From the IMG/VR virus record IMGVR_UViG_2547132275_000009: a DNA stretch of 10,281 nt. The stretch is one strand, 5' to 3'. This DNA is from a virus. Lineage: Duplodnaviria; Heunggongvirae; Uroviricota; Caudoviricetes. Both the position numbers and the translations under genes were made by a program. Below are positions 1-10,219 of the stretch, in pieces. Every line of letters begins with the position of its first letter. The stretch's first letter is position 1. Below the pieces are notes generated by a model that was not told where the DNA came from, did not search any database, and saw only the letters and a list, made by a program, of their open reading frames with translations.

Positions 1-1150
1 AAGGTATATTTCTTTTTTTAAGCTCACTTTCCATAGCTTTAAAAACAAATCTATTTCTACCTATAACAACAATTTTAGAGCAATCAATATCGCCCTCAAT
101 TTCTGGATGTCTTTTTAAATTCAGTATATGTTGAATGCTATCACAAACCCATATAGCTTCAGATTCTTCATCTGGTAAAGCATTAAAAGATTTATAGCCA
201 TCAAGAGCAGCATTAACACCAACTTGGCTATTTGGTTTTAATTTATTAGCTAATTCAATCACTGCTTTCGAAGATCTATAGTTCTCGTTTAAACAATAAG
301 TTTTAGGAGTAAAATCTTTCACGAATGATTTAATAAAATAATCTGATGATGAACCATTAAAACCATAGATCATCTGGTCACTATCACCAACCATCATGAC
401 ATCTTTTATTTTATCACCGCAGAGAACCTTTATAAATTCGTACTGAGCTCTGTTTAAGTCTTGTGCTTCATCAACAAATAAAGCAACGTATTTTTTTTGA
501 TATATTCTTGCTACCGATTCTTGATTTAATAGGATTTTATGTGCATATAAAAGTATATCATCAAAATCCACACCACCACTTTCCAATAAAGCAGACTGAT
601 AATCTTGATAAATATTCCAAATACGCGGATTGGAGCTGAATTTTATCTTTACTTCATCTTCAGTTAAAAGCTCTCTTTTAATAATAGAGAATACATTAAG
701 ATATTGACTTATAACTTTTTCACGATTGCGCTTTTCTCTAACGTCCTCAACATCTAAGTACTCATCAATATTAACCCCCTGTTCTCTTAAGGAATGTAGG
801 AAAACCTCCATCCGATCTTGGTCACGTTCAAATATATGTAATTCTTTTGGTAACCCAATAGTATACCCATAACTTTCGAGTACCCTTTGTGCAACAGAAT
901 GAATTGTAGCAATCCAAATCCTATCACGATTTTCTGAGCCATCATCTAACCTTTCAAGCATTTCATCTGCTGCTTTATTTGTGAATGTTAAAGCAACCAC
1001 ACTTCCTCTAGCAGAGTTATTAAGAATGAACCTAACCCTCTCAGTAAGCACTCTTGTTTTACCAGACCCTGCAGATGCAAGAACTTGTATAGCCCCTCCC
1101 ATAGGAGCTCTAACAACTTCAATTTGAGATTGTGATAAATTATCAATCAT
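1..1150 (-). CDS. gajB: UvrD/PcrA/Rep-like SF1 helicase, GajB-like; partial, C-terminus beyond window start
   Basis: Hand translation of the minus strand from ATG at 1150-1148 gives MIDNLSQSQIEVVRAPMGGAIQVLASAGSGKTRVLTERV (helicase Q motif plus Walker A AGSGKT) and later FVDEAQD (SF1 motif II, DExQ). No stop before position 1, at least 383 codons. Start overlaps the upstream gene stop as ATGA (1147-1150). Confidence 0.8.
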   Translation of the reverse strand, partial: MIDNLSQSQIEVVRAPMGGAIQVLASAGSGKTRVLTERVRFILNNSARGSVVALTFTNKAADEMLERLDDGSENRDRIWIATIHSVAQRVLESYGYTIGLPKELHIFERDQDRMEVFLHSLREQGVNIDEYLDVEDVREKRNREKVISQYLNVFSIIKRELLTEDEVKIKFSSNPRIWNIYQDYQSALLESGGVDFDDILLYAHKILLNQESVARIYQKKYVALFVDEAQDLNRAQYEFIKVLCGDKIKDVMMVGDSDQMIYGFNGSSSDYFIKSFVKDFTPKTYCLNENYRSSKAVIELANKLKPNSQVGVNAALDGYKSFNALPDEESEAIWVCDSIQHILNLKRHPEIEGDIDCSKIVVIGRNRFVFKAMESELKKRNIP

Positions 1151-2922
1151 AGCTCAAGCCATCCCCTAACTTTATTAAATGCAATAATAACAGATTCCGG
1201 AAGTAACTCCTCAATTCTCTTTCCATTTGCATTCTGTGCTAGAATCACTCCTAAATACCCTGCATAACTAGCTTTTGAGTCACGCATTTTTTCAATTATA
1301 GCACTATCTTGTAAAGCCTCTATTTCTCTTTTCTTGGCTTCTCGATACCGTTCATTAGGACTAGCTTTGGTTTCACTTAACACTAATGATTCAATTATTT
1401 CTTCACGAATATTTAACTCGTTGTATAACTCAGCTTCAATATCATTTGTTTCTTTGAGGAACTCTAAAGAGAAACAATCAGGATTCAATACGAGGCCATC
1501 TTCACGAACTAAACGTGCTACCTGACGGTTTATCTCACCATGAGTATCACCATCATTATCACTAATAATACAGACAGGGATACCTAAATTACTTGCAAGT
1601 TTAATGAATGGTGGGTAATTTTTACCACTGACACTTACACAGTTAACTCCAACACTAAACATCGTCCTACCGAAATACAATTCAAACATGGATGGTATTA
1701 ATTGTTCTTCTGTAACACCCTCACATAAAATTAAGGCTCGAGAGAAAAGCAACTCACCACGGGTTAACATTATCTCCCTTTTTAATGCATTTTTTTCATC
1801 ATGTTCAATTCTTTTCTTCAAACAATTTACTGTTACTCCATCACCTTTCTTTATGAATGATCTTATATCTTCTATCTCAGCCATTGCGCTCAGGTATGGT
1901 GAATGAGTACTCAGTATAATTTGTCCCTGAGATGATGATAACTGTTTAAACAAGGTTCTTTGTGCATTGGGATGTAGATGCGCTTCTGGCTCTTCAGCTC
2001 CAACAATTGGATGTAGCGCCTTATTTTCGAGCTCATGCCGTTCATGCATAAAGCTTAAAAACGATTGAACTGTAAGCATTGAAGCCCAACTTCTCGTCCC
2101 AGTGCCATGATATTCCATTGAAAATGAATGGTTTTCTTCATCTCCGAAATGTACTGTAAATTGCTTTGATAGATCTCGGATTTTTTTAGGGAAAGGAGTT
2201 ATTTCTGTGTGGCTTGATCCTAGAAATGATTGGTTTAACCCTTGAAGTGAATTTTTTAAGCTTTGAAGCGGCTCACTTCTACTCACTGCGGTTTCATTTA
2301 TTGAACTTATCATTTCTTCAAGTGCAGTAACATCTTCATCTTCATATTTAATATATGATAAGACCTTCCCTATATATGAGCTTTTATCTTTAAGCTCATG
2401 ATGTATATCCCTCTGAGCCTCAATACAAATATAGGGGATTGCATCAACTTTTGTTCTTACCTTTCTTCTCTCGTTGACAACAATCTCTTTCCATCCCTCA
2501 AACTCCCCCCATTCATTCAAATAATAACGTTGTGTATTAAACCCACCTTTTATCTCATCTGGCTGAACTTTTGTACGAATAGCCACAAACTCATGTCCAT
2601 TTGCATCTACTGCAATATTATCACCGAAAACATCAATCCATTTTTCGTCAAACTCTTCTGTTTTATTATAATGTTCATCCGTAGGTATTATTTTTAAGTC
2701 AACGATAACTTCATTAACTTTTAACCCAGAACTATCTATATGAAGATCTTCATCACTAAAGTAACGTTGGTAATCACCTAAAGCTAGTTGCAACGATTTT
2801 AGGAAGGATGTTTTCCCCGCATTGTTTGTACCTAACAAAACGGCAATACGTCCTAGCTCAACCTCAATTTCCTTTATACCTCTAAAACCTGAAATCCTAA
2901 CAGAATTTATAAGAATTGACAT
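1147..2922 (-). CDS. gajA: OLD-family ABC-type ATPase fused to C-terminal Toprim nuclease domain, GajA-like
   Basis: 591-aa ORF. N-terminal Walker A GTNNAGKTS, Walker B-like EEPEAHLHP, LSTHSP (H-loop-like). C-terminal Toprim glutamate in LILCEGVTEE and DxD motif IISDNDGD. Strong SD (AAGGAGGG) 9 nt upstream of the ATG. Followed with 4-bp overlap by a UvrD-like helicase, the Gabija / class 2 OLD arrangement. Confidence 0.85.
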   Translation of the reverse strand: MSILINSVRISGFRGIKEIEVELGRIAVLLGTNNAGKTSFLKSLQLALGDYQRYFSDEDLHIDSSGLKVNEVIVDLKIIPTDEHYNKTEEFDEKWIDVFGDNIAVDANGHEFVAIRTKVQPDEIKGGFNTQRYYLNEWGEFEGWKEIVVNERRKVRTKVDAIPYICIEAQRDIHHELKDKSSYIGKVLSYIKYEDEDVTALEEMISSINETAVSRSEPLQSLKNSLQGLNQSFLGSSHTEITPFPKKIRDLSKQFTVHFGDEENHSFSMEYHGTGTRSWASMLTVQSFLSFMHERHELENKALHPIVGAEEPEAHLHPNAQRTLFKQLSSSQGQIILSTHSPYLSAMAEIEDIRSFIKKGDGVTVNCLKKRIEHDEKNALKREIMLTRGELLFSRALILCEGVTEEQLIPSMFELYFGRTMFSVGVNCVSVSGKNYPPFIKLASNLGIPVCIISDNDGDTHGEINRQVARLVREDGLVLNPDCFSLEFLKETNDIEAELYNELNIREEIIESLVLSETKASPNERYREAKKREIEALQDSAIIEKMRDSKASYAGYLGVILAQNANGKRIEELLPESVIIAFNKVRGWLEL

Positions 2923-3039
2923 ATATTCATTCCCTCCTTGATTTTATGACATATACATTCCGAATAAATGTAATAATTCTGTTATCCAGATTATCATTTG
3001 CGGAAAATAAAATATAGTATATCCCAACCCTGCAGCGCA

Positions 3040-3058
3040 ATGCTCTCCCCGCCACGCC
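3040..3058. other. cos-like cohesive-end site of the satellite (P2/186/P4 type)
   Basis: ATGCTCTCCCCGCCACGCC matches the reverse complement of the phage 186 cos 19-mer (GGCGTGGCGGGGAAAGCAT, from memory) at 18/19 and the P2/P4 cos at 16/19. Sits exactly at the AT-rich cargo to GC-rich core transition, downstream of psu. Confidence 0.55.
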
Positions 3059-3150
3059 TGCCCGCTTAAGAGGTCGCTTTTAATGCAGGTGCATGAACGG
3101 CCTCAGGCCGCACCGGTACTGGTGTTGCGTGGGATAAAAAATACGGGGAT

Positions 3151-3183
3151 TTGCATGCAAAGCCATGCACCTTATGGATGCAT
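3151..3183. terminator. GC-rich hairpin (AGCCATGCA ... TGCATGGCT) with T6 tail; possible terminator downstream of psu
   Basis: 9-bp inverted repeat with 9-nt loop followed by TTTTTT on the plus strand; on the minus strand (the psu operon strand) the T tract is weaker. Strand assignment ambiguous. Confidence 0.35.
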
Positions 3184-3231
3184 GGCTTTTTTCGGGAAAA
3201 ATAGCGGAATTTTCGGGGATTTTTTTGCGTG

Positions 3232-3798
3232 CTAGCGTGCGACCAGTTCTGCACGTCGGCGGGTGTAAATCAGGTTCTGTGCTGGGGTGAATTTCTCGCG
3301 ATTATCATCCCGCGAAGCCGCATCAGGCCTGAATCCGATGGCCGTTAAAATATCGCTGTCATGCGCGGAATAATTAATTTTTTCACCTGCGGCCAGCCAC
3401 ACCGACAGGGCTTCACGCAGATAATCAACCGAGTGCTGCATGGCGCTCTGCTTTACTGCGGGAAGCTGTTTGTGATATCCCATCAGCTCAGGTGCCAGCG
3501 TGGCGGCCAGCTCCGCGCCGTGCTGCTGCATAAAGTCATGGAGCCGGTTTCGGATACTGATGTGCTGCACCTCCTCATGTGAGCGGATATAGTGACCGGC
3601 GGCCTGATTAATTTCCCACTTTTTCACGTCGATATTGTCGCGCAAATCCTGCATTCTGCGCGGAATTTGTTCGTCACCGGCAAGGAGCTGTTCACGGTAT
3701 TCCCGTTCAAGGTCTGCCAGTTCGGCTTTACGTTTCAGCCAGGTGTTTTTGTTCGTCTGACAGGCCTCAAAGGCCTGCTGTATGGTCACAGTGGTCAC
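3232..3798 (-). CDS. psu: Psu (polarity suppression / capsid decoration protein), P4-like
   Basis: 188-aa ORF with recognisable similarity to P4 Psu (HISIRNRL, DSDILTAIGFRPD, REKFTPAQN). Last gene of the sid-delta-psu order. SD AGGAG 9 nt upstream; ATG 15 nt after the delta stop. Confidence 0.85.
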   Translation of the reverse strand: MTTVTIQQAFEACQTNKNTWLKRKAELADLEREYREQLLAGDEQIPRRMQDLRDNIDVKKWEINQAAGHYIRSHEEVQHISIRNRLHDFMQQHGAELAATLAPELMGYHKQLPAVKQSAMQHSVDYLREALSVWLAAGEKINYSAHDSDILTAIGFRPDAASRDDNREKFTPAQNLIYTRRRAELVAR

Positions 3799-3813
3799 GT
3801 GTCTCTCTCCTGA

Positions 3814-4053
3814 TTAATGCCGGAACGGCGAGCTGTAGCAGCCCTGTACTTTACGCGGCGGTGGTGGTGTCACCGGGGCGGGGTCGGTTTTCTCCGGTGC
3901 GGCACGTATCACACCGTCAACCGACTCGATGGTGCGGAAAGTGGCCGAACATTCGATATTGGTACACTGGTGATAACGCTGTTTGACGTTTTCCGACAGA
4001 TACCGGCTGGTACGGACGTGCGCGGTCTTTTTGCAGAACGGACAGTGAAACAT
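3814..4053 (-). CDS. delta: Ogr/Delta-family zinc-finger late transcription activator (single-domain, 79 aa)
   Basis: MFHCPFCKKTAHVRTSRY...RYHQCTNIECSATF carries the Cys-x2-Cys ... Cys-x4-Cys pattern and close similarity to P2 Ogr. Positioned between sid and psu as in P4. SD GAGGG upstream. Confidence 0.85.
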   Translation of the reverse strand: MFHCPFCKKTAHVRTSRYLSENVKQRYHQCTNIECSATFRTIESVDGVIRAAPEKTDPAPVTPPPPRKVQGCYSSPFRH

Positions 4054-4056
4054 AAT

Positions 4057-4800
4057 TCAGCCCTCTGCCTGTTCGTGGTCTTTTGCGGCCAGTTCAGCGG
4101 CAAGCTTCATCCGTCTGGCCGGGCTTCTTAACAGCGCCATATCAACCCCGGTTATGACCGGGCGATTCATGCCCGTTACGGACAGGACCGGCTCCTGCTC
4201 CATATCAAAATGATACAGGGCTGACTGCATATTCAGGGCATCACCCAGCTCACGGGTCACGGTCGCACGCGGCGAGGTTTCCCCGCTCATTTCCAGCGAC
4301 CGTATACGCAACAGAAAGGCACGTAACAGTGCGGGGCTGATACCGGTCAGCGCCTTCTTCCACTCGCTGTTGGCGTAAGTGGTGAACGCTTTTTCATGGG
4401 CGCTGATATAAGCAGTACCGGAGGAGCATGCGCCAAGCATGGCGTGGCTTTTGTCTTTCTCCAGCTCGGTAATCAGACCGGTGAACTCATCAGCCAGTTC
4501 GCGGCTGGCGATACGTTTACTGTGTTCAGCTTTCAGTTCAGGAGTGAGGTTGCCGCGCAGGGTTCGAAAGCGGCTGCGCCAGTCCTGTTCGGCCTGTGCA
4601 CTTTCACTGAGCGCGGTCTGTCGTTCCTGCTCACAACGCTGAATGGAAGCCTCAATGTCGCTGAGTTTACCCATGCTGGCCGTGTGTGCATCTTTTGCTT
4701 CGTTAAGTGCGGCCAGCGCACCGGCAATGCGTTGTTCCGCGCCTTCATCCTGTTTACTGATAACGGTCTGCATGGCTTTGATAATGAGTTCGGGTTTCAT
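4057..4800 (-). CDS. sid: Sid (capsid size determination, external scaffold), P4-like
   Basis: Position between the Delta box and delta, and Sid-like sequence. I place the start at ATG 4800-4798 (MKPELIIKAM, SD GGAGAG 8 nt upstream, 247 aa) rather than the track start at 4866, which would overlap the Delta-box promoter. Confidence 0.75.
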   Translation of the reverse strand: MKPELIIKAMQTVISKQDEGAEQRIAGALAALNEAKDAHTASMGKLSDIEASIQRCEQERQTALSESAQAEQDWRSRFRTLRGNLTPELKAEHSKRIASRELADEFTGLITELEKDKSHAMLGACSSGTAYISAHEKAFTTYANSEWKKALTGISPALLRAFLLRIRSLEMSGETSPRATVTRELGDALNMQSALYHFDMEQEPVLSVTGMNRPVITGVDMALLRSPARRMKLAAELAAKDHEQAEG

Positions 4801-4872
4801 GTTCAGGCTCTCCGTGTGTTCAACCTGAAATGATTCTGACGCCTCCTGCACAACAACACGATTCATTGCCGT

Positions 4873-4890
4873 TGTCAGAGTGCTGGCACA
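4873..4890 (-). promoter_or_regulatory. TGT-N12-ACA dyad (Ogr/Delta activator box) of a Psid-like late promoter
   Basis: TTGTCAGAGTGCTGGCACAA contains an exact TGT-N12-ACA. Its centre lies about 81 nt upstream of the proposed sid ATG, consistent with a box near -55 and a short leader. Confidence 0.55.
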
Positions 4891-4968
4891 AACAGACCTT
4901 AAAAACCGGCTGGCCAGAGGAAGGTCGCAGGAAAACCTTACTCACCGTTTGTTTTTTTACTTATAACT

Positions 4969-5071
4969 ATTCACCACTGTTCACCTTAAATAAAAAGATA
5001 AGTAATACAGTGAGTTAAGAGGTGAACAGTTGAAGATCTGACTGTTCACCGTCTGTTCACCACTGTTCACC
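4969..5071. repeat. Cluster of TGTTCACC iterons (ori-like, alpha-protein binding sites)
   Basis: Exact TGTTCACC at 4978-4985, 5043-5050, 5054-5061, 5064-5071 (last three phased 10-11 bp apart), inverted copy GGTGAACA at 5021-5028, partial ATTCACC at 4969-4975. Same octamer as in the crr-like region after alpha. Confidence 0.6.
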
Positions 5072-5170
5072 CTCCTGTTTTTTCAGCCAGTCAGTTACTT
5101 AGATTTTTTAGCGATTAAAAAGCATATATATATAAATAAAAGTAATCATCGCTTTGCCAAAGAATTATCA

Positions 5171-5210
5171 AGGATTGCCAACGATTGTCAGAGATTGCCA
5201 CTGTTTGCCA
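5171..5210. repeat. Four phased 10-bp repeats (AGGATTGCCA, ACGATTGTCA, GAGATTGCCA, CTGTTTGCCA); candidate regulator binding array
   Basis: Head-to-tail 10-bp periodicity, consensus nnGATTGCCA, plus an additional TTGCCA at 5154-5159, in the divergent promoter region upstream of the alpA/vis-like gene. Confidence 0.4.
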
Positions 5211-5349
5211 TTCACCTGTTAACGGTTTGTTGTGTGAGATTTCACTGCAAAATGACTTGTTGCCCTGAGGGAAAATATTCACAAAATAGAGAGCTACCCG
5301 AAGCCGGACGGACACGACCGGCACTGTATGGACTTTGTGAGGTAGCCCG

Positions 5350-5616
5350 ATGCACACCGCTTTTTCTTCCCCGTCTTCTGCTCCTGCCGCGCCGCTGATG
5401 CCGGTTTCTGATACCGTTCACGAACGCTTTATCCGTCTGCCCGAAGTGATGCATCTGTGCGGCCTGTCCCGCTCGACCATTTACGACCTCATCAGCCGGG
5501 AAGCCTTCCCGAAACAAATCTCCCTCGGCGGCAAAAACGTGGCGTGGGCGCAGTCTGAAATCACTGCATGGATGGCGGATCGCATTGCCGAACGTAACCG
5601 GGGCTATGACGCATGA
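5350..5616 (+). CDS. alpA: AlpA/Vis-family helix-turn-helix regulator (phage excisionase-like fold)
   Basis: [49 protein letters not shown] matches the AlpA/Vis family pattern. SD GAGG 6 nt upstream of the ATG at 5350; an alternative internal start at 5398 would give 72 aa. Confidence 0.7.
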
Positions 5617-5651
5617 TGATGACCGTTCGGCAAACAGCCCCTTTTTCTGGC

Positions 5652-5681
5652 TTGCTTCTTTTCGCCGTTTCCAGGTATAGT
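5652..5681 (+). promoter_or_regulatory. Candidate sigma70 promoter (TTGCTT -N18- TATAGT), PLE-like, driving the immunity leader and replication operon
   Basis: -10 is 5/6 to TATAAT, -35 is 3/6 to TTGACA, 18-bp spacer. Lies just downstream of the alpA stop and about 25 nt upstream of the seqA-like box. Confidence 0.3.
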
Positions 5682-5710
5682 TTTCCCGCTGTCGCAAAAT
5701 CGGCAGCCGG

Positions 5711-5960
5711 GCGTAGGAACCCGAGTTACTCAATGGCGACACCGGACGCGCCATGCGTCTTTTTTTACGTCGTTGCTCAGGCACACCCATTTTTCGGGCT
5801 GTGGTGTTTACACCTTAGCCCCTGTCAGATAATGGTGATCCGGGCGGGGCAGCCTTCGGGCTGGCCGGTATTCATTGAGGCCGGTATTCCTACCCCCGTT
5901 CGGGTCACCACCCATGAGCGTAGGAACTCCGGTGGTGGCAATAACCGCTACTCAATGGAG
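5711..5960 (+). ncRNA. Candidate P4 CI-RNA-type immunity region: seqA-like (5711-5738), seqB/cI-like core (5862-5895), seqC-like (5918-5960)
   Basis: Direct repeats GCGTAGGAAC ... TACTCAATGG at 5711-5736 and 5918-5958. Between them, TTCATTGAGG ... ATTCCTAC (5871-5893) carries CATTGAG and TTCCTAC, complementary in antiparallel bipartite fashion to CTCAATG and GTAGGAA of both flanking boxes. Also an 11-nt tandem repeat GGCCGGTATTC at 5863-5873 and 5879-5889. Confidence 0.45.
5745..5767 (+). terminator. Short GC hairpin (GACGC-GCCAT-GCGTC) followed by T7; candidate immunity/attenuation terminator in the leader
   Basis: 5-bp GC-rich stem, 5-nt loop, then TTTTTTT at 5760-5766. Overlaps an alternative pairing ATGGCG/CGCCAT that involves the 3' part of the seqA-like box. 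Confidence 0.4.
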
Positions 5961-5969
5961 GTTGCCACT

Positions 5970-6164
5970 ATGGCTACGACCCTCACCCCGTCACACCCGC
6001 AGTTTGTCTTTGTATTTGCCGCTGTTCGTCGCGCAGACCGTAAACCCCGTATTTGTATGCTTCGCACCGTTGCCGGTGATGAGCACGCCGCACGCCTTTC
6101 TCTTGTTCGCGATTACGTCCTCTCGTTCGCTGGCCGCCTGCCGGTTGCGGAGGTGCGCGCATGA
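5970..6164 (+). CDS. Hypothetical small protein (64 aa), first gene of the replication operon
   Basis: ATG at 5970 preceded by GGAGG 9 nt upstream; stop overlaps the next ATG as ATGA. This is an internal start of the 183-aa track ORF, whose upstream part covers the structured leader. Confidence 0.4.
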
Positions 6165-6388
6165 GACACACCACCATTACTGCCCGTGACCTCGAATGTC
6201 TGGAGCATATGCGCAATGTCGGCCAGCTCGTCGGCGACCTGATGCAGGTGCAGGACTGCGCCACCGTTCGTCGTGACCCGGCGCAGCAGTTACAGCTCAC
6301 CTCCGTGATTTACCTCATGACCGCCCAGCTCGACGGCGTGGTCGAACGCTGCAATCAGCAGTGGCTGACCGGGGAGGGTAACGTATGA
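6161..6388 (+). CDS. Hypothetical small protein (75 aa)
   Basis: Translationally coupled on both sides (ATGA overlaps at 6161-6164 and 6385-6388). Codon usage consistent with the neighbouring alpha gene. Confidence 0.5.
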
Positions 6389-6705
6389 AAAAGCCATTAC
6401 CACCCGTATTACGCGCCGCGCTGTATCGTCGCGCCGTGGCCTGTGCATGGCTGACCCTGTGCGAACGCCAGCACCGCTACCCGCACCTCACCCTCGACGC
6501 GCTGGAAAGCGCCATTGCCGCCGAGCTGGAGGGCTTCTACCTGCGCCAGCACGGCGAGGAAAAAGGCCGCCAGATTGCCTGTGCCCTGCTGGAAGATTTA
6601 ATGGAAGCCGGACCACTCAAAGCCGCCCCGTCGCTGTCCTTTCTCGGGCTGGCCGTGATGGATGAGCTTTGCGCCCGTCATATCACGTCGCCGGTACTGC
6701 ACTGA
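6385..6705 (+). CDS. Hypothetical protein (106 aa) immediately upstream of alpha; possible positional equivalent of P4 cnr (unverified)
   Basis: ATGA-coupled start; stop 14 nt before the alpha start. Size and position recall the P4 orf upstream of alpha, but I cannot confirm sequence similarity. Confidence 0.5.
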
Positions 6706-6719
6706 GGGAGAAAATAACG

Positions 6720-9053
6720 ATGAAAATGAACGTAACAGAAACCGTAAAACAGGCGTGCGGCCACTGGCCGCGCATTCTCCCTGCGCTGGGTGTGAAGGTG
6801 ATTAAAAACCGCCATCAGTCCTGCCCGGTATGCGGCGGCTCCGACCGCTTTCGCTTTGATGATAAAGAGGGGCGCGGGACGTGGTTCTGCAATCAGTGCG
6901 GCGCGGGTGACGGGCTTAAGCTGGTAGAAAAAGTGTTTGGCGTGACCCCGTCAGAGGCCGCCGGGAAGGTGAATGCCGTGACCGGCAACCTGCCGCCGGT
7001 TGCCCCGGAAGTGATTGCGGTCGCAGAGGCTGAAACTGAGGCCGACCGCAAAGCGGCCGCCACGATGGCCGTAAAGCTCATGGAGAAAGCCCGCCCGGCC
7101 ACCGGCAACGCCTACCTCACCCGCAAGGGGTTCCCCGCTCTGGAATGTCTGACGCTCACCGTCATGCATAAAACCGGCGGCGTGACGTTCCGCGCCGGGG
7201 ATGTGGTTGTCCCGCTGTATGATGATACCGGTGCACTGGTTAACCTTCAGCTTATCAATGCTGACGGTCTCAAACGAACCCTGAAAGGGGGGCAGGTCAA
7301 AGGGACATGTCATGTCATCGAAGGGAAAAAACAGGCCGGAAAACGCCTGTGGATTGCAGAGGGGTATGCGACCGCACTCACCGTGCATCACCTGACCGGG
7401 GAAACCGTCATGGTGGCGCTGTCCTCCGTGAACCTCCTTTCTCTGGCGAGCCTTGCCCGTCAGAAATATCCGACCTGTCAGATTGTCCTCGCCGCCGACC
7501 GTGACCTTAACGGCGACGGCCAGAGTAAAGCCGCTGCGGCCGCAGATGCCTGTGAGGGCATTGTTGCCCTGCCGCCGGTGTTCGGTGACTGGAATGATGC
7601 GTTTATGCAGAAAGGTGAAGAAGCCACCCGGAAAGCCATTTATGACGCTATCCGGCCACCGGCGCAAAGTCCGTTCGACACCATGAGCGAGGCGGAATTC
7701 ACCGCCATGAGCGCCAGCGACAAGGCTTTGCGGGTGCATGAGCACTACAGCGAAGCGCTGGCGGTGGATGCTAACGGCCAGCTCCTGTCCCGCTATGAAA
7801 ACGGCATCTGGAAAAATATCCCTGCCGCCACTTTTTCACGGAATGTGGCTGATTTATTCCAGCGCTTACGCGCCCCGTTCTCGTCAGGGAAAATTGCCTC
7901 GGTGGTGGAGACCCTGAAACTGATTATTCCGCAGCAGGATACACCGGCGCGCCGTCTGATTGGCTTTCGCAATGGGGTACTCGATACCCAAAGTGGCCTG
8001 TTCAGCCCGCACAGTAAATCGCACTGGCTGCGTACGTTGTGCGACGTGGATTTCACCCCGCCGGTGGAAGGGGAAACGCTGGAGACGCACGCGCCGAACT
8101 TCTGGCGCTGGCTCGACCGTGCGGCCGGTAAAAGTCCACAAAAACGCGACGTGATTCTGGCTGCGCTGTTTATGGTGCTGGCGAACCGTTACGACTGGCA
8201 GCTCTTTCTCGAAGTCACCGGTCCCGGCGGGAGTGGCAAAAGTATTCTGGCTGAAATCGCGACCCTGCTTGCCGGGGAAGATAATGCCACGTCAGCCGAT
8301 ATCGACACACTGGAAGACCCGCGCAAACGTGCATCCCTGATTGGCTTCTCGCTAATCCGTCTGCCAGACCAGGAAAAATGGAGCGGCGACGGCGCAGGGC
8401 TTAAGGCCATCACCGGCGGCGATGCGGTCTCAGTTGACCCGAAATACCAGAACCCGTACTCAACACATATTCCGGCAGTGATTCTGGCCGTGAACAACAA
8501 CCCGATGCGCTTCACCGACCGCAGCGGCGGTGTGTCACGTCGCCGGGTGATTATTCACTTCCCGGAACAGATTGCCCCGGAGGAACGCGACCCGCAGCTC
8601 AGGGATAAAATTGCGCGCGAGCTGGCCGTCATTGTGCGCCAGCTTATGCAGAAATTCAGCGACCCGATGACCGCCCGCGCACTGCTCCAGTCGCAGCAGA
8701 ATTCCGATGAGGCGCTCAACATCAAGCGCGATGCAGACCCGACATTTGATTTTTGCGGCTATCTGGAAATGCTTCCGCAGACCAACGGGATGTTTATGGG
8801 GAATGCCAGCATCATCCCGCGTAATTATCGTAAATATCTCTATCACGCGTATCTGGCCTATATGGAGGCTAACGGCTACAGGAACGTGCTCAGCCTGAAA
8901 ATGTTCGGGCTGGGGCTGCCCATGATGCTGAAAGAGTACGGCCTGAATTATGAGAAGCGGCACACCAAGCAGGGGATACAAACCAATCTGTCGCTGAAAG
9001 AGGAAAGTTACGGCGACTGGCTGCCAAAATGCGACGACCCCACTGCGACATAA
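6720..9053 (+). CDS. alpha: Alpha protein: bifunctional primase-helicase with origin-binding C-terminus (P4 alpha-like)
   Basis: 777 aa from ATG 6720 (SD GGGAG 9 nt upstream; track ORF begins at an upstream in-frame ATG at 6669). N-terminal Zn-binding CPVCGG...CNQCG, Toprim motifs LWIAEGYATAL and LAADRDLNGDG, helicase Walker A VTGPGGSGKSILAE. Followed by its cognate iterons. Confidence 0.9.
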   Translation: MKMNVTETVKQACGHWPRILPALGVKVIKNRHQSCPVCGGSDRFRFDDKEGRGTWFCNQCGAGDGLKLVEKVFGVTPSEAAGKVNAVTGNLPPVAPEVIAVAEAETEADRKAAATMAVKLMEKARPATGNAYLTRKGFPALECLTLTVMHKTGGVTFRAGDVVVPLYDDTGALVNLQLINADGLKRTLKGGQVKGTCHVIEGKKQAGKRLWIAEGYATALTVHHLTGETVMVALSSVNLLSLASLARQKYPTCQIVLAADRDLNGDGQSKAAAAADACEGIVALPPVFGDWNDAFMQKGEEATRKAIYDAIRPPAQSPFDTMSEAEFTAMSASDKALRVHEHYSEALAVDANGQLLSRYENGIWKNIPAATFSRNVADLFQRLRAPFSSGKIASVVETLKLIIPQQDTPARRLIGFRNGVLDTQSGLFSPHSKSHWLRTLCDVDFTPPVEGETLETHAPNFWRWLDRAAGKSPQKRDVILAALFMVLANRYDWQLFLEVTGPGGSGKSILAEIATLLAGEDNATSADIDTLEDPRKRASLIGFSLIRLPDQEKWSGDGAGLKAITGGDAVSVDPKYQNPYSTHIPAVILAVNNNPMRFTDRSGGVSRRRVIIHFPEQIAPEERDPQLRDKIARELAVIVRQLMQKFSDPMTARALLQSQQNSDEALNIKRDADPTFDFCGYLEMLPQTNGMFMGNASIIPRNYRKYLYHAYLAYMEANGYRNVLSLKMFGLGLPMMLKEYGLNYEKRHTKQGIQTNLSLKEESYGDWLPKCDDPTAT

Positions 9054-9061
9054 CCAACCTC

Positions 9062-9090
9062 AGACCGGCAACAGCCGGTCTTTTTCTTTC
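9062..9090 (+). terminator. Rho-independent terminator after alpha
   Basis: AGACCGGC-AACA-GCCGGTCT hairpin (8-bp stem) followed by TTTTTCTTTC, starting 9 nt after the alpha stop codon. Confidence 0.7.
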
Positions 9091-9104
9091 TGACCATTAT
9101 CACA

Positions 9105-9400
9105 GGGTGAACAATCCACTGTTCACCCTTCACCGTATATTCACCCTGTATCACCATGAAATTATTGATAAAAAACCAGAGGTGAACAGTGTGAACAGTA
9201 AAACCTGAAAAAACTTTTTATCCCTCCACCACATCGCCTGACCGGGCGCATCCAGAGCGAGAAAAAATCACAAAGGTGAAGAGTCGACTGTTCACTCTTC
9301 ACCAACTCATCACCATTTATCTTTATGATTTAAAATAGAAAATAAGCATGGTGAACAGTGTGAACAGTTAAATGCAAAAAAACTTTTTTTGAGTATGATG
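9105..9400. repeat. crr-like cis replication region: two ~120-bp direct repeats each containing TGTTCACC/GGTGAACA iterons
   Basis: Repeat 1 about 9105-9230, repeat 2 about 9273-9400. GGTGAACA at 9106, 9181, 9350; TGTTCACC at 9120; degenerate copies at 9190, 9289, 9359. Near-identical tail GGTGAACAGTGTGAACAGT(A/T)AA..AAAAAACTTTTT at 9181-9228 and 9350-9399. Confidence 0.65.
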
Positions 9401-9446
9401 TAGCTCTCCATACTTTATGGAAAGATCCAAGTTAGCTGAAAGCCTC

Positions 9447-9465
9447 ACCAAGACAGCACGTTAAT
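9447..9465. promoter_or_regulatory. Perfect 7-bp inverted repeat CACGTTA-ATTCG-TAACGTG, operator-like, 30 bp upstream of the 166-aa ORF
   Basis: Exact palindromic arms with 5-bp spacer located between the crr-like repeats and the ORF start; a second inverted repeat (GAGTATG ... CATACT) lies at 9401-9425. Confidence 0.25.
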
Positions 9466-9494
9466 TCGTAACGTGTTAAGCAAAAGGGAATTTT

Positions 9495-9995
9495 ATGGGG
9501 ACTACTTTGCTTCAAGAAAACCATGAAAAAATTTTAAACATACTAAATGAAGCTAAAGATGTGGCGCTAAGGTATTACAAATTAACCAATAAGCCTCTCG
9601 GAATCACTGGAGAAATAGCTGAACATGAAGCTGCAACTCTTCTCGGGTTGTCACTATGTTCAGCACGTCAGTCCGGATACGATGCGACTGAGATTTTGGA
9701 CGGGAAAGAATATAGAGTTCAAATCAAAGGTCGATATATGCCTGATCCTAAAAAAGTCTCTGCGAGAATTGGTGCTATTGATATATCTAAGCCATTTGAT
9801 TCTGTTCTTTTAGTTTTGCTTGATGAAAATTATGATGCTTTTGCCATGTATGAAGCATCACGAGATGTAGTAGTCGCAGCTCTTCAAGCTCCGGGGTCAA
9901 AGTCTAGAAATGAGCGAAATCAGCTAGGCATAGCAAAATTCAAGTCCATTAGCCGTCTCCGCTGGAGCAAGGTTGTTGAACCTGAGATCCTTTAA
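9495..9995 (+). CDS. Hypothetical protein (166 aa) in an AT-rich islet; function unassigned, possibly a PD-(D/E)xK-like fold
   Basis: Clean ORF with a GGGA-type SD 6 nt upstream, no competing ORF, composition clearly more AT-rich than the satellite core. Motif string EIAEHEAATLLG ... GYDATEILDGKEYRVQIKGR is compatible with a nuclease core (E ... D ... Q/E-x-K) but this is only pattern-level inference. Confidence 0.6.
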   Translation: MGTTLLQENHEKILNILNEAKDVALRYYKLTNKPLGITGEIAEHEAATLLGLSLCSARQSGYDATEILDGKEYRVQIKGRYMPDPKKVSARIGAIDISKPFDSVLLVLLDENYDAFAMYEASRDVVVAALQAPGSKSRNERNQLGIAKFKSISRLRWSKVVEPEIL

Positions 9996-10219
9996 TTGGT
10001 ACACGTTTAGGTACACACCTGAAAGTTGAATACGGAAAAATTCTTTATATTTAACGTGTTGATTAATTTATTCAGACTCCGCCAGCCCACCAATCATGAT
10101 TGGACGGTGTAAGGACAACACCAACAAAAACAGGAAGTTAGAAGTCTCAGCAAGACACCGACCAGACGGTGAGGAGACATAAAAGGATACGCAAAGGAGC
10201 CGCGGCTCCTGGTGATATG

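What the first reader, a model, noticed from the sequence alone, without database searches (positions are those of the whole stretch)
1..2922. Gabija-like two-gene anti-phage module (OLD-family ATPase-Toprim + UvrD-like helicase) as cargo of a P4-like satellite
The 591-aa protein combines an ABC/OLD-type ATPase (GTNNAGKTS, EEPEAHLHP, LSTHSP) with a C-terminal Toprim domain (CEGVTEE, SDNDGD). It is translationally coupled by an ATGA overlap to an SF1 helicase with AGSGKT and DEAQD motifs. That domain pair and gene order is the signature of Gabija (GajA-GajB) / class 2 OLD nuclease-helicase systems. The module is AT-rich against a GC-rich satellite core and lies immediately beyond the cos site, where P4-like elements are known to carry variable defence cargo. 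The helicase is truncated by the window edge, so further cargo genes may lie to the left.
Basis: partly seen in the sequence, partly recalled or inferred. Interest (0 to 1): 0.8.

Follow-up and report, generated by a model that had tools for sequence, protein, structure and literature searches.

The report
Gabija defence pair on P4-like satellite
The first 3 kb of the window carry a two-gene Gabija (class 2 OLD nuclease plus UvrD-like helicase) anti-phage module in the known defence-cargo slot of a P4-like phage satellite; the reading is correct, but this gene pair at this site is already catalogued in the literature.

Summary
On the minus strand, a 591-aa ORF (1147-2922) overlaps by ATGA a helicase ORF that runs off the left edge (1-1150), and every quoted motif is present.

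PADLOC assigns the two proteins to GajA (6.9e-246, full length) and GajB (3.8e-176). Pfam finds AAA_15, DUF2813 and OLD-like_TOPRIM in the first, and UvrD-helicase in the second. An AlphaFold model of the 591-aa protein matches Bacillus cereus GajA best.

The same 591-aa plus roughly 632-aa pair, with the same 4-bp overlap, recurs in Aeromonas, Mariprofundus and the archaeon Methanolobus, twice beside other defence systems.

The module is AT-rich (35% vs 56% GC). It starts about 10 bp beyond a P4-type cos site (3040-3058), next to psu-delta-sid. In a 99.5% identical E. coli locus, gajB is complete and is followed directly by the satellite integrase, so no further cargo is expected.

Rousset et al. 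2022 described this psu-int hotspot. They list Gabija among its cargo, and their Table S1A holds this very protein pair. The finding is therefore correct but known.

Open points: this subtype is only about 15-19% identical to the tested Gabija systems, and I found no test of it. A second rare cargo gene, a BisI-like endonuclease candidate, sits between alpha/crr and attR.

The parts
1..1150 (-). gajB, N-terminal 383 codons of a UvrD-like SF1 helicase. It is cut by the window edge; the full protein is 632 aa in the 99.5% identical E. coli MARGA_3 locus.
   Evidence: Translation. PADLOC GajB PDLC00132 3.8e-176. Pfam UvrD-helicase 3.2e-60. 381/383 residues identical to the L001 GajB, which scores 6.4e-272 over the full length.
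1147..2922 (-). gajA, a 591-aa OLD-family protein with an ABC-type ATPase (Walker A K37, Walker B E310/E311, H340) and a C-terminal Toprim nuclease (E401, D455, D457).
   Evidence: (these residues are invariant in 30 homologues).
1147..1150 (-). ATGA overlap of the gajA stop codon and the gajB start codon (translational coupling).
   Evidence: The same 4-bp overlap occurs in Methanolobus, Mariprofundus and Aeromonas loci.
2923..3030 (-). AT-rich leader of gajA with the ribosome-binding site AAGGAGGG. The promoter is presumed to lie here but was not identified.
   Evidence: Sequence. The consensus scan found no minus-strand promoter.
3031..3035 (.). Boundary between the variable cargo and the conserved satellite core.
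   Evidence: Matches of other E. coli P4-like satellites begin at 3031 or 3035. The alignment to P4 ends here.
3040..3058 (-). cos cohesive-end sequence GGCGTGGCGGGGAGAGCAT.
   Evidence: 16/19 identical to the P4 end GGCGAGGCGGGGAAAGCAC, within a 190-bp alignment to the P4 psu-cos junction.
3232..3798 (-). psu (polarity suppression / capsid decoration).
   Evidence: Pfam Psu 8.4e-87.
3814..4053 (-). delta-like Ogr/Delta zinc-finger activator.
   Evidence: Pfam Ogr_Delta 8.6e-21.
4057..4800 (-). sid-like capsid size determination gene.
   Evidence: Position and DNA similarity to P4 sid. Annotated as 'capsid protein' in L001.
5350..5616 (+). AlpA/Vis-like helix-turn-helix regulator.
   Evidence: Pfam Phage_AlpA 3e-20.
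6720..9053 (+). alpha primase-helicase (777 aa from the ATG that matches the annotated relatives).
   Evidence: Pfam Zn_Ribbon_Prim, Toprim_3, D5_N, DUF5906 and Pox_D5. Annotation of L001, L002 and P4.
9099..9388 (+). crr-like region: two direct repeats of about 115-120 bp (9099-9219 and 9273-9388) carrying TGTTCACC-type iterons.
   Evidence: Self-matches at 74-76% identity. P4 crr annotation. Sequence.
9391..9992 (+). Second cargo cassette, holding a 166-aa DUF6998 / PADLOC mREase_II gene (9495-9995).
   Evidence: It replaces 82 bp of L001. PADLOC 1.2e-100. Weak match to Eco15I.
10066..10083 (+). attR-like imperfect copy of the ssrA 3' end. It is preceded by an integrase arm-type site, ATTGGTACACGTTTAGGTACAC, at 9995-10016.
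   Evidence: Comparison by eye (ssrA 3' end and arm site in L002 against the window).

Best explanation
Window 1-3030 is the defence-cargo slot of a P4-like phage satellite integrated at ssrA. It holds a complete Gabija / class 2 OLD system: gajA (ABC ATPase plus Toprim nuclease) translationally coupled to gajB (UvrD-like SF1 helicase).

**Shown here.**
- Family assignment of both proteins.
- Conservation of all catalytic residues.
- The GajA-like fold.
- Conservation of the two-gene unit, with its 4-bp overlap, across bacteria and an archaeon.
- The position between cos/psu and the integrase.

**Inferred from published work on the Bacillus cereus system** (partly restated in the preprint read; the 4:4 GajA-GajB stoichiometry comes from the titles of PDB entries listed).
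- GajA and GajB form a complex.
- Normal cellular nucleotide levels keep the Toprim nuclease off through the ATPase domain.
- Phage replication lowers the nucleotide pool, which releases DNA binding and nicking by GajA.
- GajB is stimulated by the resulting DNA ends and hydrolyses more nucleotides.
- The infection is aborted or phage DNA is destroyed.

**Role for the satellite.** While it is a prophage, the module protects the host, and so the satellite itself, against unrelated phages.
For: - PADLOC GajA 6.9e-246 and GajB 3.8e-176 (6.4e-272 for the complete protein).
- Pfam AAA_15, DUF2813 and OLD-like_TOPRIM in one protein; UvrD-helicase and UvrD_C in the other.
- K37, E310/E311, H340, E401, D455 and D457 are invariant in 30 homologues at 51-83% identity.
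- The AF2 model (pLDDT 81.5) matches GajA structures 8u7i, 8x5i and 8sm3 first.
- A 591-aa OLD gene followed by a 631-638-aa UvrD-type gene with a 4-bp overlap occurs in Methanolobus (next to Wadjet-type genes), in Mariprofundus (between hsdS and hsdR of a type I R-M system) and in Aeromonas.
- GC is 0.35 in the module against 0.56 in the core.
- cos lies 10 bp from the cargo boundary.
- In NZ_CM170101, gajB is followed by the integrase.
- Rousset et al. 2022 (PMC9122126) define the psu-int hotspot. They label one of its systems Gabija, and their Table S1A lists WP_097433377 + WP_097433376, the proteins of that 99.5% identical locus.
Against: - I found no experimental test of this subtype.
- GajA is only 15-17% identical to B. 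cereus GajA (42 bits by sequence). It is 19% identical to the commoner E. coli P4-hotspot Gabija.
- GajB resembles UvrD/PcrA (204 bits) far more than B. cereus GajB (42 bits), and is 632 aa against 494 aa. Nucleotide sensing and the 4:4 complex are therefore extrapolated.
- No promoter was identified.
- The helicase is incomplete in the window itself.
Confidence: 0.88

Rival explanations
1. The module is mechanistically a distinct class 2 OLD helicase-nuclease machine. GajB acts as a true translocating UvrD-type helicase that feeds DNA to the Toprim nuclease. It is not a nucleotide-depletion sensor of the Bacillus Gabija type. It would still be anti-phage, but would work differently.
For: - GajB carries the complete UvrD-helicase and UvrD_C architecture and all SF1 motifs. 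It scores 204 bits to E. coli UvrD against 42 bits to B. cereus GajB.
- GajA is only 15-17% identical to B. cereus GajA.
- The subfamily is unusually conserved (52-57% identity from E. coli to Methanolobus and Mariprofundus), which suggests its own constraints.
Against: - The same domain pair, the same gene order and the same best structural match as Gabija.
- The ATPase-site residues used for nucleotide sensing in GajA are conserved.
- No data here distinguish the two mechanisms.
Confidence: 0.15
2. The pair serves competition between mobile elements or the satellite's own life cycle (for example acting on the helper P2-type phage or on plasmids). It is not general anti-phage defence.
For: - It is carried by a satellite that parasitises P2-like phages.
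- In the closest relative, a P2/186-like prophage lies directly next to the satellite.
- Rousset et al. frame the hotspot as inter-viral competition.
Against: - The same module occurs outside satellites, in chromosomal defence contexts of unrelated bacteria and an archaeon.
- It is present in only 5-6 of 5426 complete E. coli genomes, while the satellite core is widespread. It is therefore not needed for the satellite cycle.
Confidence: 0.08
3. The ATPase-Toprim protein is a class 1, P2 Old-like standalone nuclease (or a Septu, PARIS or retron-effector ATPase), and the helicase is an unrelated neighbour or a housekeeping UvrD/Rep copy.
For: There are weaker matches to PADLOC Old (1.6e-42) and AriA (1e-28), and to NCBIfam retron and MADS ATPases. 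The best sequence match in the PDB is the Thermus class 1 OLD.
Against: - The GajA model scores 815 bits against 144 for Old.
- The genes overlap by 4 bp, and the pairing is conserved across domains of life.
- All NCBIfam equivalog scores lie far below their cut-offs.
- There is no reverse transcriptase, DUF4435 or HNH partner gene nearby.
Confidence: 0.03

Closest known systems
Gabija (GajA-GajB) of Bacillus cereus VD045 (Doron et al. 2018; structures 8sm3, 8u7i, 8j4t, 8jqb)
   Same: - Two genes in the order OLD-type ATPase-Toprim nuclease, then UvrD-like helicase.
- The same catalytic residues.
- The predicted GajA fold matches these structures best.
- PADLOC files both proteins under GajA and GajB.
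   Different: - GajA is only 15-17% identical.
- GajB is 632 aa (494 aa in B. cereus) and is much closer in sequence to UvrD/PcrA.
- Complex formation and nucleotide sensing were not tested here.
[quoted passage not shown] 2019; Xanthomonas and Burkholderia C-terminal regions, 6njv and 6nk8)
   Same: An OLD gene in tandem with a UvrD/PcrA/Rep-like helicase. The Toprim region aligns with the Xanthomonas C-terminal region (43 bits over residues 378-469).
   Different: The sequence similarity is distant. Those proteins were studied biochemically, not as satellite cargo.
P4 psu-int defence hotspot (Rousset et al. 2022, PMC9122126)
   Same: The same position: next to cos, between psu and int. Table S1A lists WP_097433377 + WP_097433376 at this locus, and Table S1B labels system 6 as Gabija with 153 occurrences.
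   Different: - The representative of system 6 is another Gabija subtype, 19% identical in GajA and listed with the helicase first.
- The text of that paper does not name a Gabija among the systems it validated. I did not read its table of cloned systems in full.
- I did not find a separate Table S1B row for this arrangement down to rank 57.
Gabija of E. coli ECOR49 (Wu et al., bioRxiv 10.1101/2022.08.21.504612)
   Same: An E. coli Gabija with shown activity (10^5-fold against lambda). Activity was lost in ATPase, Toprim and helicase mutants.
   Different: The residue numbering (K35, H317) fits a different subtype from the window protein, whose Walker A lysine is K37. That paper describes plasmids carrying Gabija together with tmn, not satellites.
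P2 Old (class 1 OLD)
   Same: An ATPase plus Toprim exclusion nuclease carried next to cos on a P2-family element.
   Different: It is a single gene without a helicase partner. The PADLOC Old model scores 144 bits against 815 for GajA.

Membership tests
Gabija (GajA/GajB) | GajA has an N-terminal ABC-type ATPase and a C-terminal Toprim nuclease (OLD family). | tested here: met
   Pfam AAA_15 at 96.6 bits, OLD-like_TOPRIM at 67.2 bits and DUF2813 at 78.6 bits, all above their cut-offs. PADLOC GajA PDLC00067 6.9e-246, residues 1-590 on profile positions 1-601 of 604.
Gabija (GajA/GajB) | A UvrD-like SF1 helicase (GajB) is encoded directly next to gajA. | tested here: met
   4-bp ATGA overlap. 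PADLOC GajB PDLC00132 3.8e-176 for the fragment and 6.4e-272 for the complete relative. Pfam UvrD-helicase and UvrD_C.
Gabija (GajA/GajB) | Catalytic residues are intact: Walker A Lys, Walker B Glu, H-loop His, Toprim Glu and DxD; helicase motifs I and II. | tested here: met
   K37, E310/E311, H340, E401, D455 and D457 are invariant in alignment A1. E401 aligns with the Toprim Glu of B. cereus GajA. AGSGKT and DEAQD are present.
Gabija (GajA/GajB) | The GajA three-dimensional fold. | tested here: met
   AF2 model with pLDDT 81.5 and pTM 0.75. Foldseek top hits are 8u7i_A (2.7e-22), 8x5i and 8sm3_A, with TM 0.55-0.66. Residues 170-192 and 248-280 are of low confidence.
Gabija (GajA/GajB) | A GajA4:GajB4 supramolecular complex. 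| not testable with these tools
   No multimer prediction or biochemistry is available. GajB differs strongly from B. cereus GajB.
Gabija (GajA/GajB) | Nucleotide-inhibited DNA nicking and anti-phage activity. | not testable with these tools
   This needs plaque assays and nuclease assays.
Class 2 OLD nucleases | The OLD gene is in conserved tandem with a UvrD/PcrA/Rep-like helicase gene. | tested here: met
   5 of 5 loci of three distant homologues (53-57% identity) have a 631-638-aa UvrD-type gene that overlaps the OLD gene by 4 bp.
P4-like satellite, psu-int defence hotspot | Satellite core genes (psu, delta, sid, alpha) and a P2/P4-type cos. | tested here: met
   Pfam Psu, Ogr_Delta and the primase domains. 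DNA similarity to P4 sid, delta and psu. cos matches in 16/19 positions. Gene order equals the P4 map.
P4-like satellite, psu-int defence hotspot | The cargo lies between cos/psu and the integrase. | tested here: inconclusive
   The integrase lies outside the window. In NZ_CM170101, which is 99.5% identical over 1-3300, a 396-aa tyrosine integrase starts 37 bp beyond gajB.
Housekeeping UvrD/Rep/PcrA | The score reaches the NCBIfam equivalog cut-off. | tested here: not met
   PcrA 199 vs 911, UvrD 191 vs 1144, Rep 156 vs 951. These scores are for the 383-aa fragment; the gene lies in AT-rich mobile cargo.

The most novel reading that the evidence does not exclude
This 591-aa GajA / 632-aa GajB subtype is about 15-19% identical to the Gabija systems studied so far, and pairs the nuclease with a full-size UvrD-like helicase. 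It may work as a processive helicase-nuclease rather than as the nucleotide-depletion switch described for Bacillus. In addition, this satellite has two independently exchangeable defence slots: psu-int holding Gabija, and crr-attP holding a BisI-like modification-dependent endonuclease candidate. P4-like elements would then carry combinatorial arsenals.
Probability: 0.15. Interest if true: 0.45.

Novelty: already known. Interest (0 to 1): 0.2.

Why it matters
It is a clean example of a phage satellite that carries a host-protecting immune system in its exchangeable cargo slot. It adds nothing new in kind. Gabija is a well-studied system, the P4 psu-int hotspot was published in 2022, and this protein pair appears in that paper's locus table. 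What remains of value is practical. I found no experimental test of this subtype, it is rare in E. coli (5-6 of 5426 complete genomes), and it is strikingly conserved across bacteria and archaea. It would therefore be a reasonable second model for asking how general the Bacillus Gabija mechanism is.

Tried and rejected
- **tRNA/tmRNA scan of the window:** nothing found. The satellite's right end was located instead by comparing the window with the ssrA 3' end of L002.
- **Promoter/terminator scan of 2800-3300:** no minus-strand promoter and no terminator, so the gajAB promoter stays unassigned.
- **NCBIfam:** no model reached its cut-off for either protein. This argues only against housekeeping orthology.
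- **MAFFT alignment of the cos region in a script:** it gave an empty row. It was replaced by a local pairwise alignment.
- **Two scripts failed on file names**.
- **Search for a Table S1B row for this exact Pfam arrangement in Rousset et al.:** not found in ranks 1-57. The stored file is truncated, so I cannot say whether the authors merged it into their Gabija group.
- **Rejected readings:**
  - Class 1 OLD.
  - Septu, PARIS or retron effector ATPases (lower scores, no partner genes).
  - A DRT 'RTasHel' helicase (no reverse transcriptase present).
  - A housekeeping UvrD.
Full report
**1. The observation**

The ORF list shows a 591-aa ORF at 1147..2922 on the minus strand. Reading on from 1150, the minus strand stays open for 383 codons to the window edge. 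The junction reads GAGCTATGATTG, so the stop of the first gene and the ATG of the second overlap as ATGA.

- In the 591-aa protein: GTNNAGKTS (31-39), EEPEAHLHP (310-318), LSTHSP (337-342), CEGVTEE (400-406) and SDNDGD (454-459).
- In the helicase: AGSGKT (27-32) and DEAQD (227-231), plus TFTNKAA, GDSDQMIYGFNG and NYRS.

GC content is 0.346 for 1-3030 and 0.561 for 3031-9053.

**2. What the two proteins are**

PADLOC assigns the 591-aa protein to GajA model PDLC00067, with E 6.9e-246 and 815 bits, over residues 1-590 on profile positions 1-601 of 604. The Old model scores 144 bits and AriA 99 bits. The helicase fragment goes to GajB model PDLC00132, with E 3.8e-176 on profile positions 3-377 of 625.

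Pfam finds AAA_15, DUF2813, OLD-like_TOPRIM and AAA_21 in the first protein, and UvrD-helicase and AAA_19 in the second. NCBIfam has no model that reaches its cut-off. The PcrA, UvrD and Rep equivalogs score 199, 191 and 156 bits against cut-offs of 911, 1144 and 951, so this is not a housekeeping helicase.

A search of the large protein collection found 2178 relatives with E below 1e-10. Among them are full-length proteins of about 590 aa at 52-57% identity in Morganella, Aeromonas, Psychromonas, Mariprofundus and the archaeon Methanolobus. In an alignment of 30 of these, the following residues are invariant:
- the Walker A lysine K37;
- Q170;
- E310/E311;
- H340;
- the Toprim residues E401, D455 and D457.

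An AlphaFold2 model built on that alignment has mean pLDDT 81.5 and pTM 0.75. Residues 170-192 and 248-280 are poorly defined. Foldseek against the PDB ranks B. cereus GajA first (8u7i_A at 2.7e-22, then 8x5i and 8sm3_A), followed by the class 1 OLD of Thermus scotoductus and then retron Eco8 and PtuA ATPases.

**3. Is the pair a unit?**

I looked up the genomic places of three distant homologues. In each place a 591-aa OLD gene is followed by a UvrD-type gene of 631-638 aa that starts 4 bp before the OLD stop codon:
- Methanolobus vulcani, beside Wadjet-type genes.
- Mariprofundus ferrooxydans, wedged between hsdS and hsdR of a type I restriction system.
- Three Aeromonas contigs.

The two-gene unit is therefore conserved across domains of life and sits in defence neighbourhoods. 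That is the defining trait of class 2 OLD nucleases, which are the same thing as Gabija.

**4. The surroundings**

To the right of the module lie the following genes:

| Coordinates | Strand | Gene |
|---|---|---|
| 3232-3798 | - | psu |
| 3814-4053 | - | Ogr/Delta zinc-finger gene |
| 4057-4800 | - | sid-like gene |
| 5350-5616 | + | AlpA-like regulator |
| 5613-6164 | + | cI-region/Icd-like ORF |
| 6385-6705 | + | DUF5375 (P4 ORF106) |
| 6720-9053 | + | alpha primase-helicase |

This is the P4 gene order.

The stretch between psu and gajA aligns with the P4 psu-cos junction. It contains GGCGTGGCGGGGAGAGCAT at 3058..3040, which matches the P4 cohesive end at 16 of 19 positions. The alignment stops near 3031. 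Matches of other E. coli P4-like satellites to the window also begin at 3031 or 3035. The cargo therefore begins about 10 bp beyond cos.

Downstream of alpha there are two crr-type direct repeats (9099-9219 and 9273-9388). After them come an integrase arm-type site and an imperfect copy of the ssrA 3' end at 10066-10083. This marks the right end of a satellite integrated at ssrA, as in E. coli KMi029.

**5. What lies beyond the left edge**

E. coli MARGA_3 (NZ_CM170101) matches 1-3300 at 99.5% identity. There gajB is 632 aa and 381/383 identical to the window fragment. It scores PADLOC GajB 6.4e-272 and carries UvrD-helicase plus UvrD_C. A 396-aa tyrosine integrase with an arm-binding domain follows after 37 bp.

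**6. Comparison with what is known**

Rousset et al. 2022 (PMC9122126) showed that the psu-int locus next to cos is a hotspot of anti-phage systems in P4-like satellites. Their Table S1B lists a Gabija group with 153 occurrences. Their Table S1A lists WP_097433377 + WP_097433376, which are exactly the MARGA_3 proteins, as a hotspot cargo. It also lists a related pair, WP_001356949 + WP_001356948. PADLOC evidently holds a model built for this very subfamily. The system, the carrier, the site and this allele are therefore all on record.

**7. What is less ordinary**

This subtype is far from the Gabija systems that have been studied:
- GajA is 15-17% identical to B. cereus GajA.
- It is 19% identical to the representative of the common E. 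coli hotspot Gabija.
- The E. coli Gabija shown to be active (ECOR49) has residue numbering that fits that other subtype.
- GajB scores 204 bits to E. coli UvrD but 42 bits to B. cereus GajB, and is 632 aa rather than 494 aa.

Within complete E. coli genomes the subtype is rare: 5 genomes at 99% identity or more and 1 at 77%, out of 5426. I found no experimental test of it. The mechanism I give (nucleotide-gated nicking by GajA, end-stimulated nucleotide hydrolysis by GajB) is therefore an inference from the Bacillus system.

**8. Verdict**

This is a known kind of system in a known place. Its interest is low, apart from its possible use as a second, divergent Gabija model.

Noticed in passing
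window 9391-9992 (gene 9495-9995, + strand): There is a second AT-rich cargo cassette between the crr repeats and the attP arm site/attR. It holds a 166-aa DUF6998 protein.
- PADLOC calls the protein mREase_II (1.2e-100, full length).
- It has a weak match to the BisI-family m5C-dependent endonuclease Eco15I (8q5m, E 1.1e-4).
- The cassette replaces 82 bp in the MARGA_3 satellite.
- It occurs in only 1 of 5426 complete E. coli genomes.

This suggests a second, small variable slot in P4-like satellites.
   Followed up: partly
L001 (NZ_CM170101) 1-9669, left of the satellite integrase: In the closest relative, the early region of a P2/186-like prophage lies directly next to the satellite's integrase. 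Its genes include the replication endonuclease, Dam methylase, CII, CI, an integrase and an HNH endonuclease. The helper-type phage and the satellite appear to sit in tandem.
   Followed up: no
window 9099-9219 and 9273-9388: Two direct repeats of about 115-120 bp, 74-76% alike, carry GGTGAACAGTGTGAACAG-type iterons. This is the arrangement of the P4 crr region downstream of alpha.
   Followed up: partly
window 9995-10016 and 10066-10083: ATTGGTACACGTTTAGGTACAC recurs beside the integrase gene in L002 and is likely an arm-type site. ACTCCGCCAGCCCACCAA is an imperfect copy of the ssrA 3' end. Together they place the satellite's right boundary inside the window. Bases beyond about 10097 are host DNA next to ypjA.
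   Followed up: partly
window 6161-6388 (+ strand): This 75-aa ORF between the cI-region gene and DUF5375 has no Pfam family. It matches phrog_10110 over its full length (8e-47). It is 228 bp here and in KMi029, but the corresponding annotated gene is 126 bp in MARGA_3, so this is a small variable spot in the satellite core.
   Followed up: no
L004 (Mariprofundus ferrooxydans) 2031-11776: The homologous gajA-gajB pair is inserted between hsdS and hsdR of a type I restriction-modification operon. The gene ends overlap on both sides, giving a nested arrangement of two defence systems.
   Followed up: no
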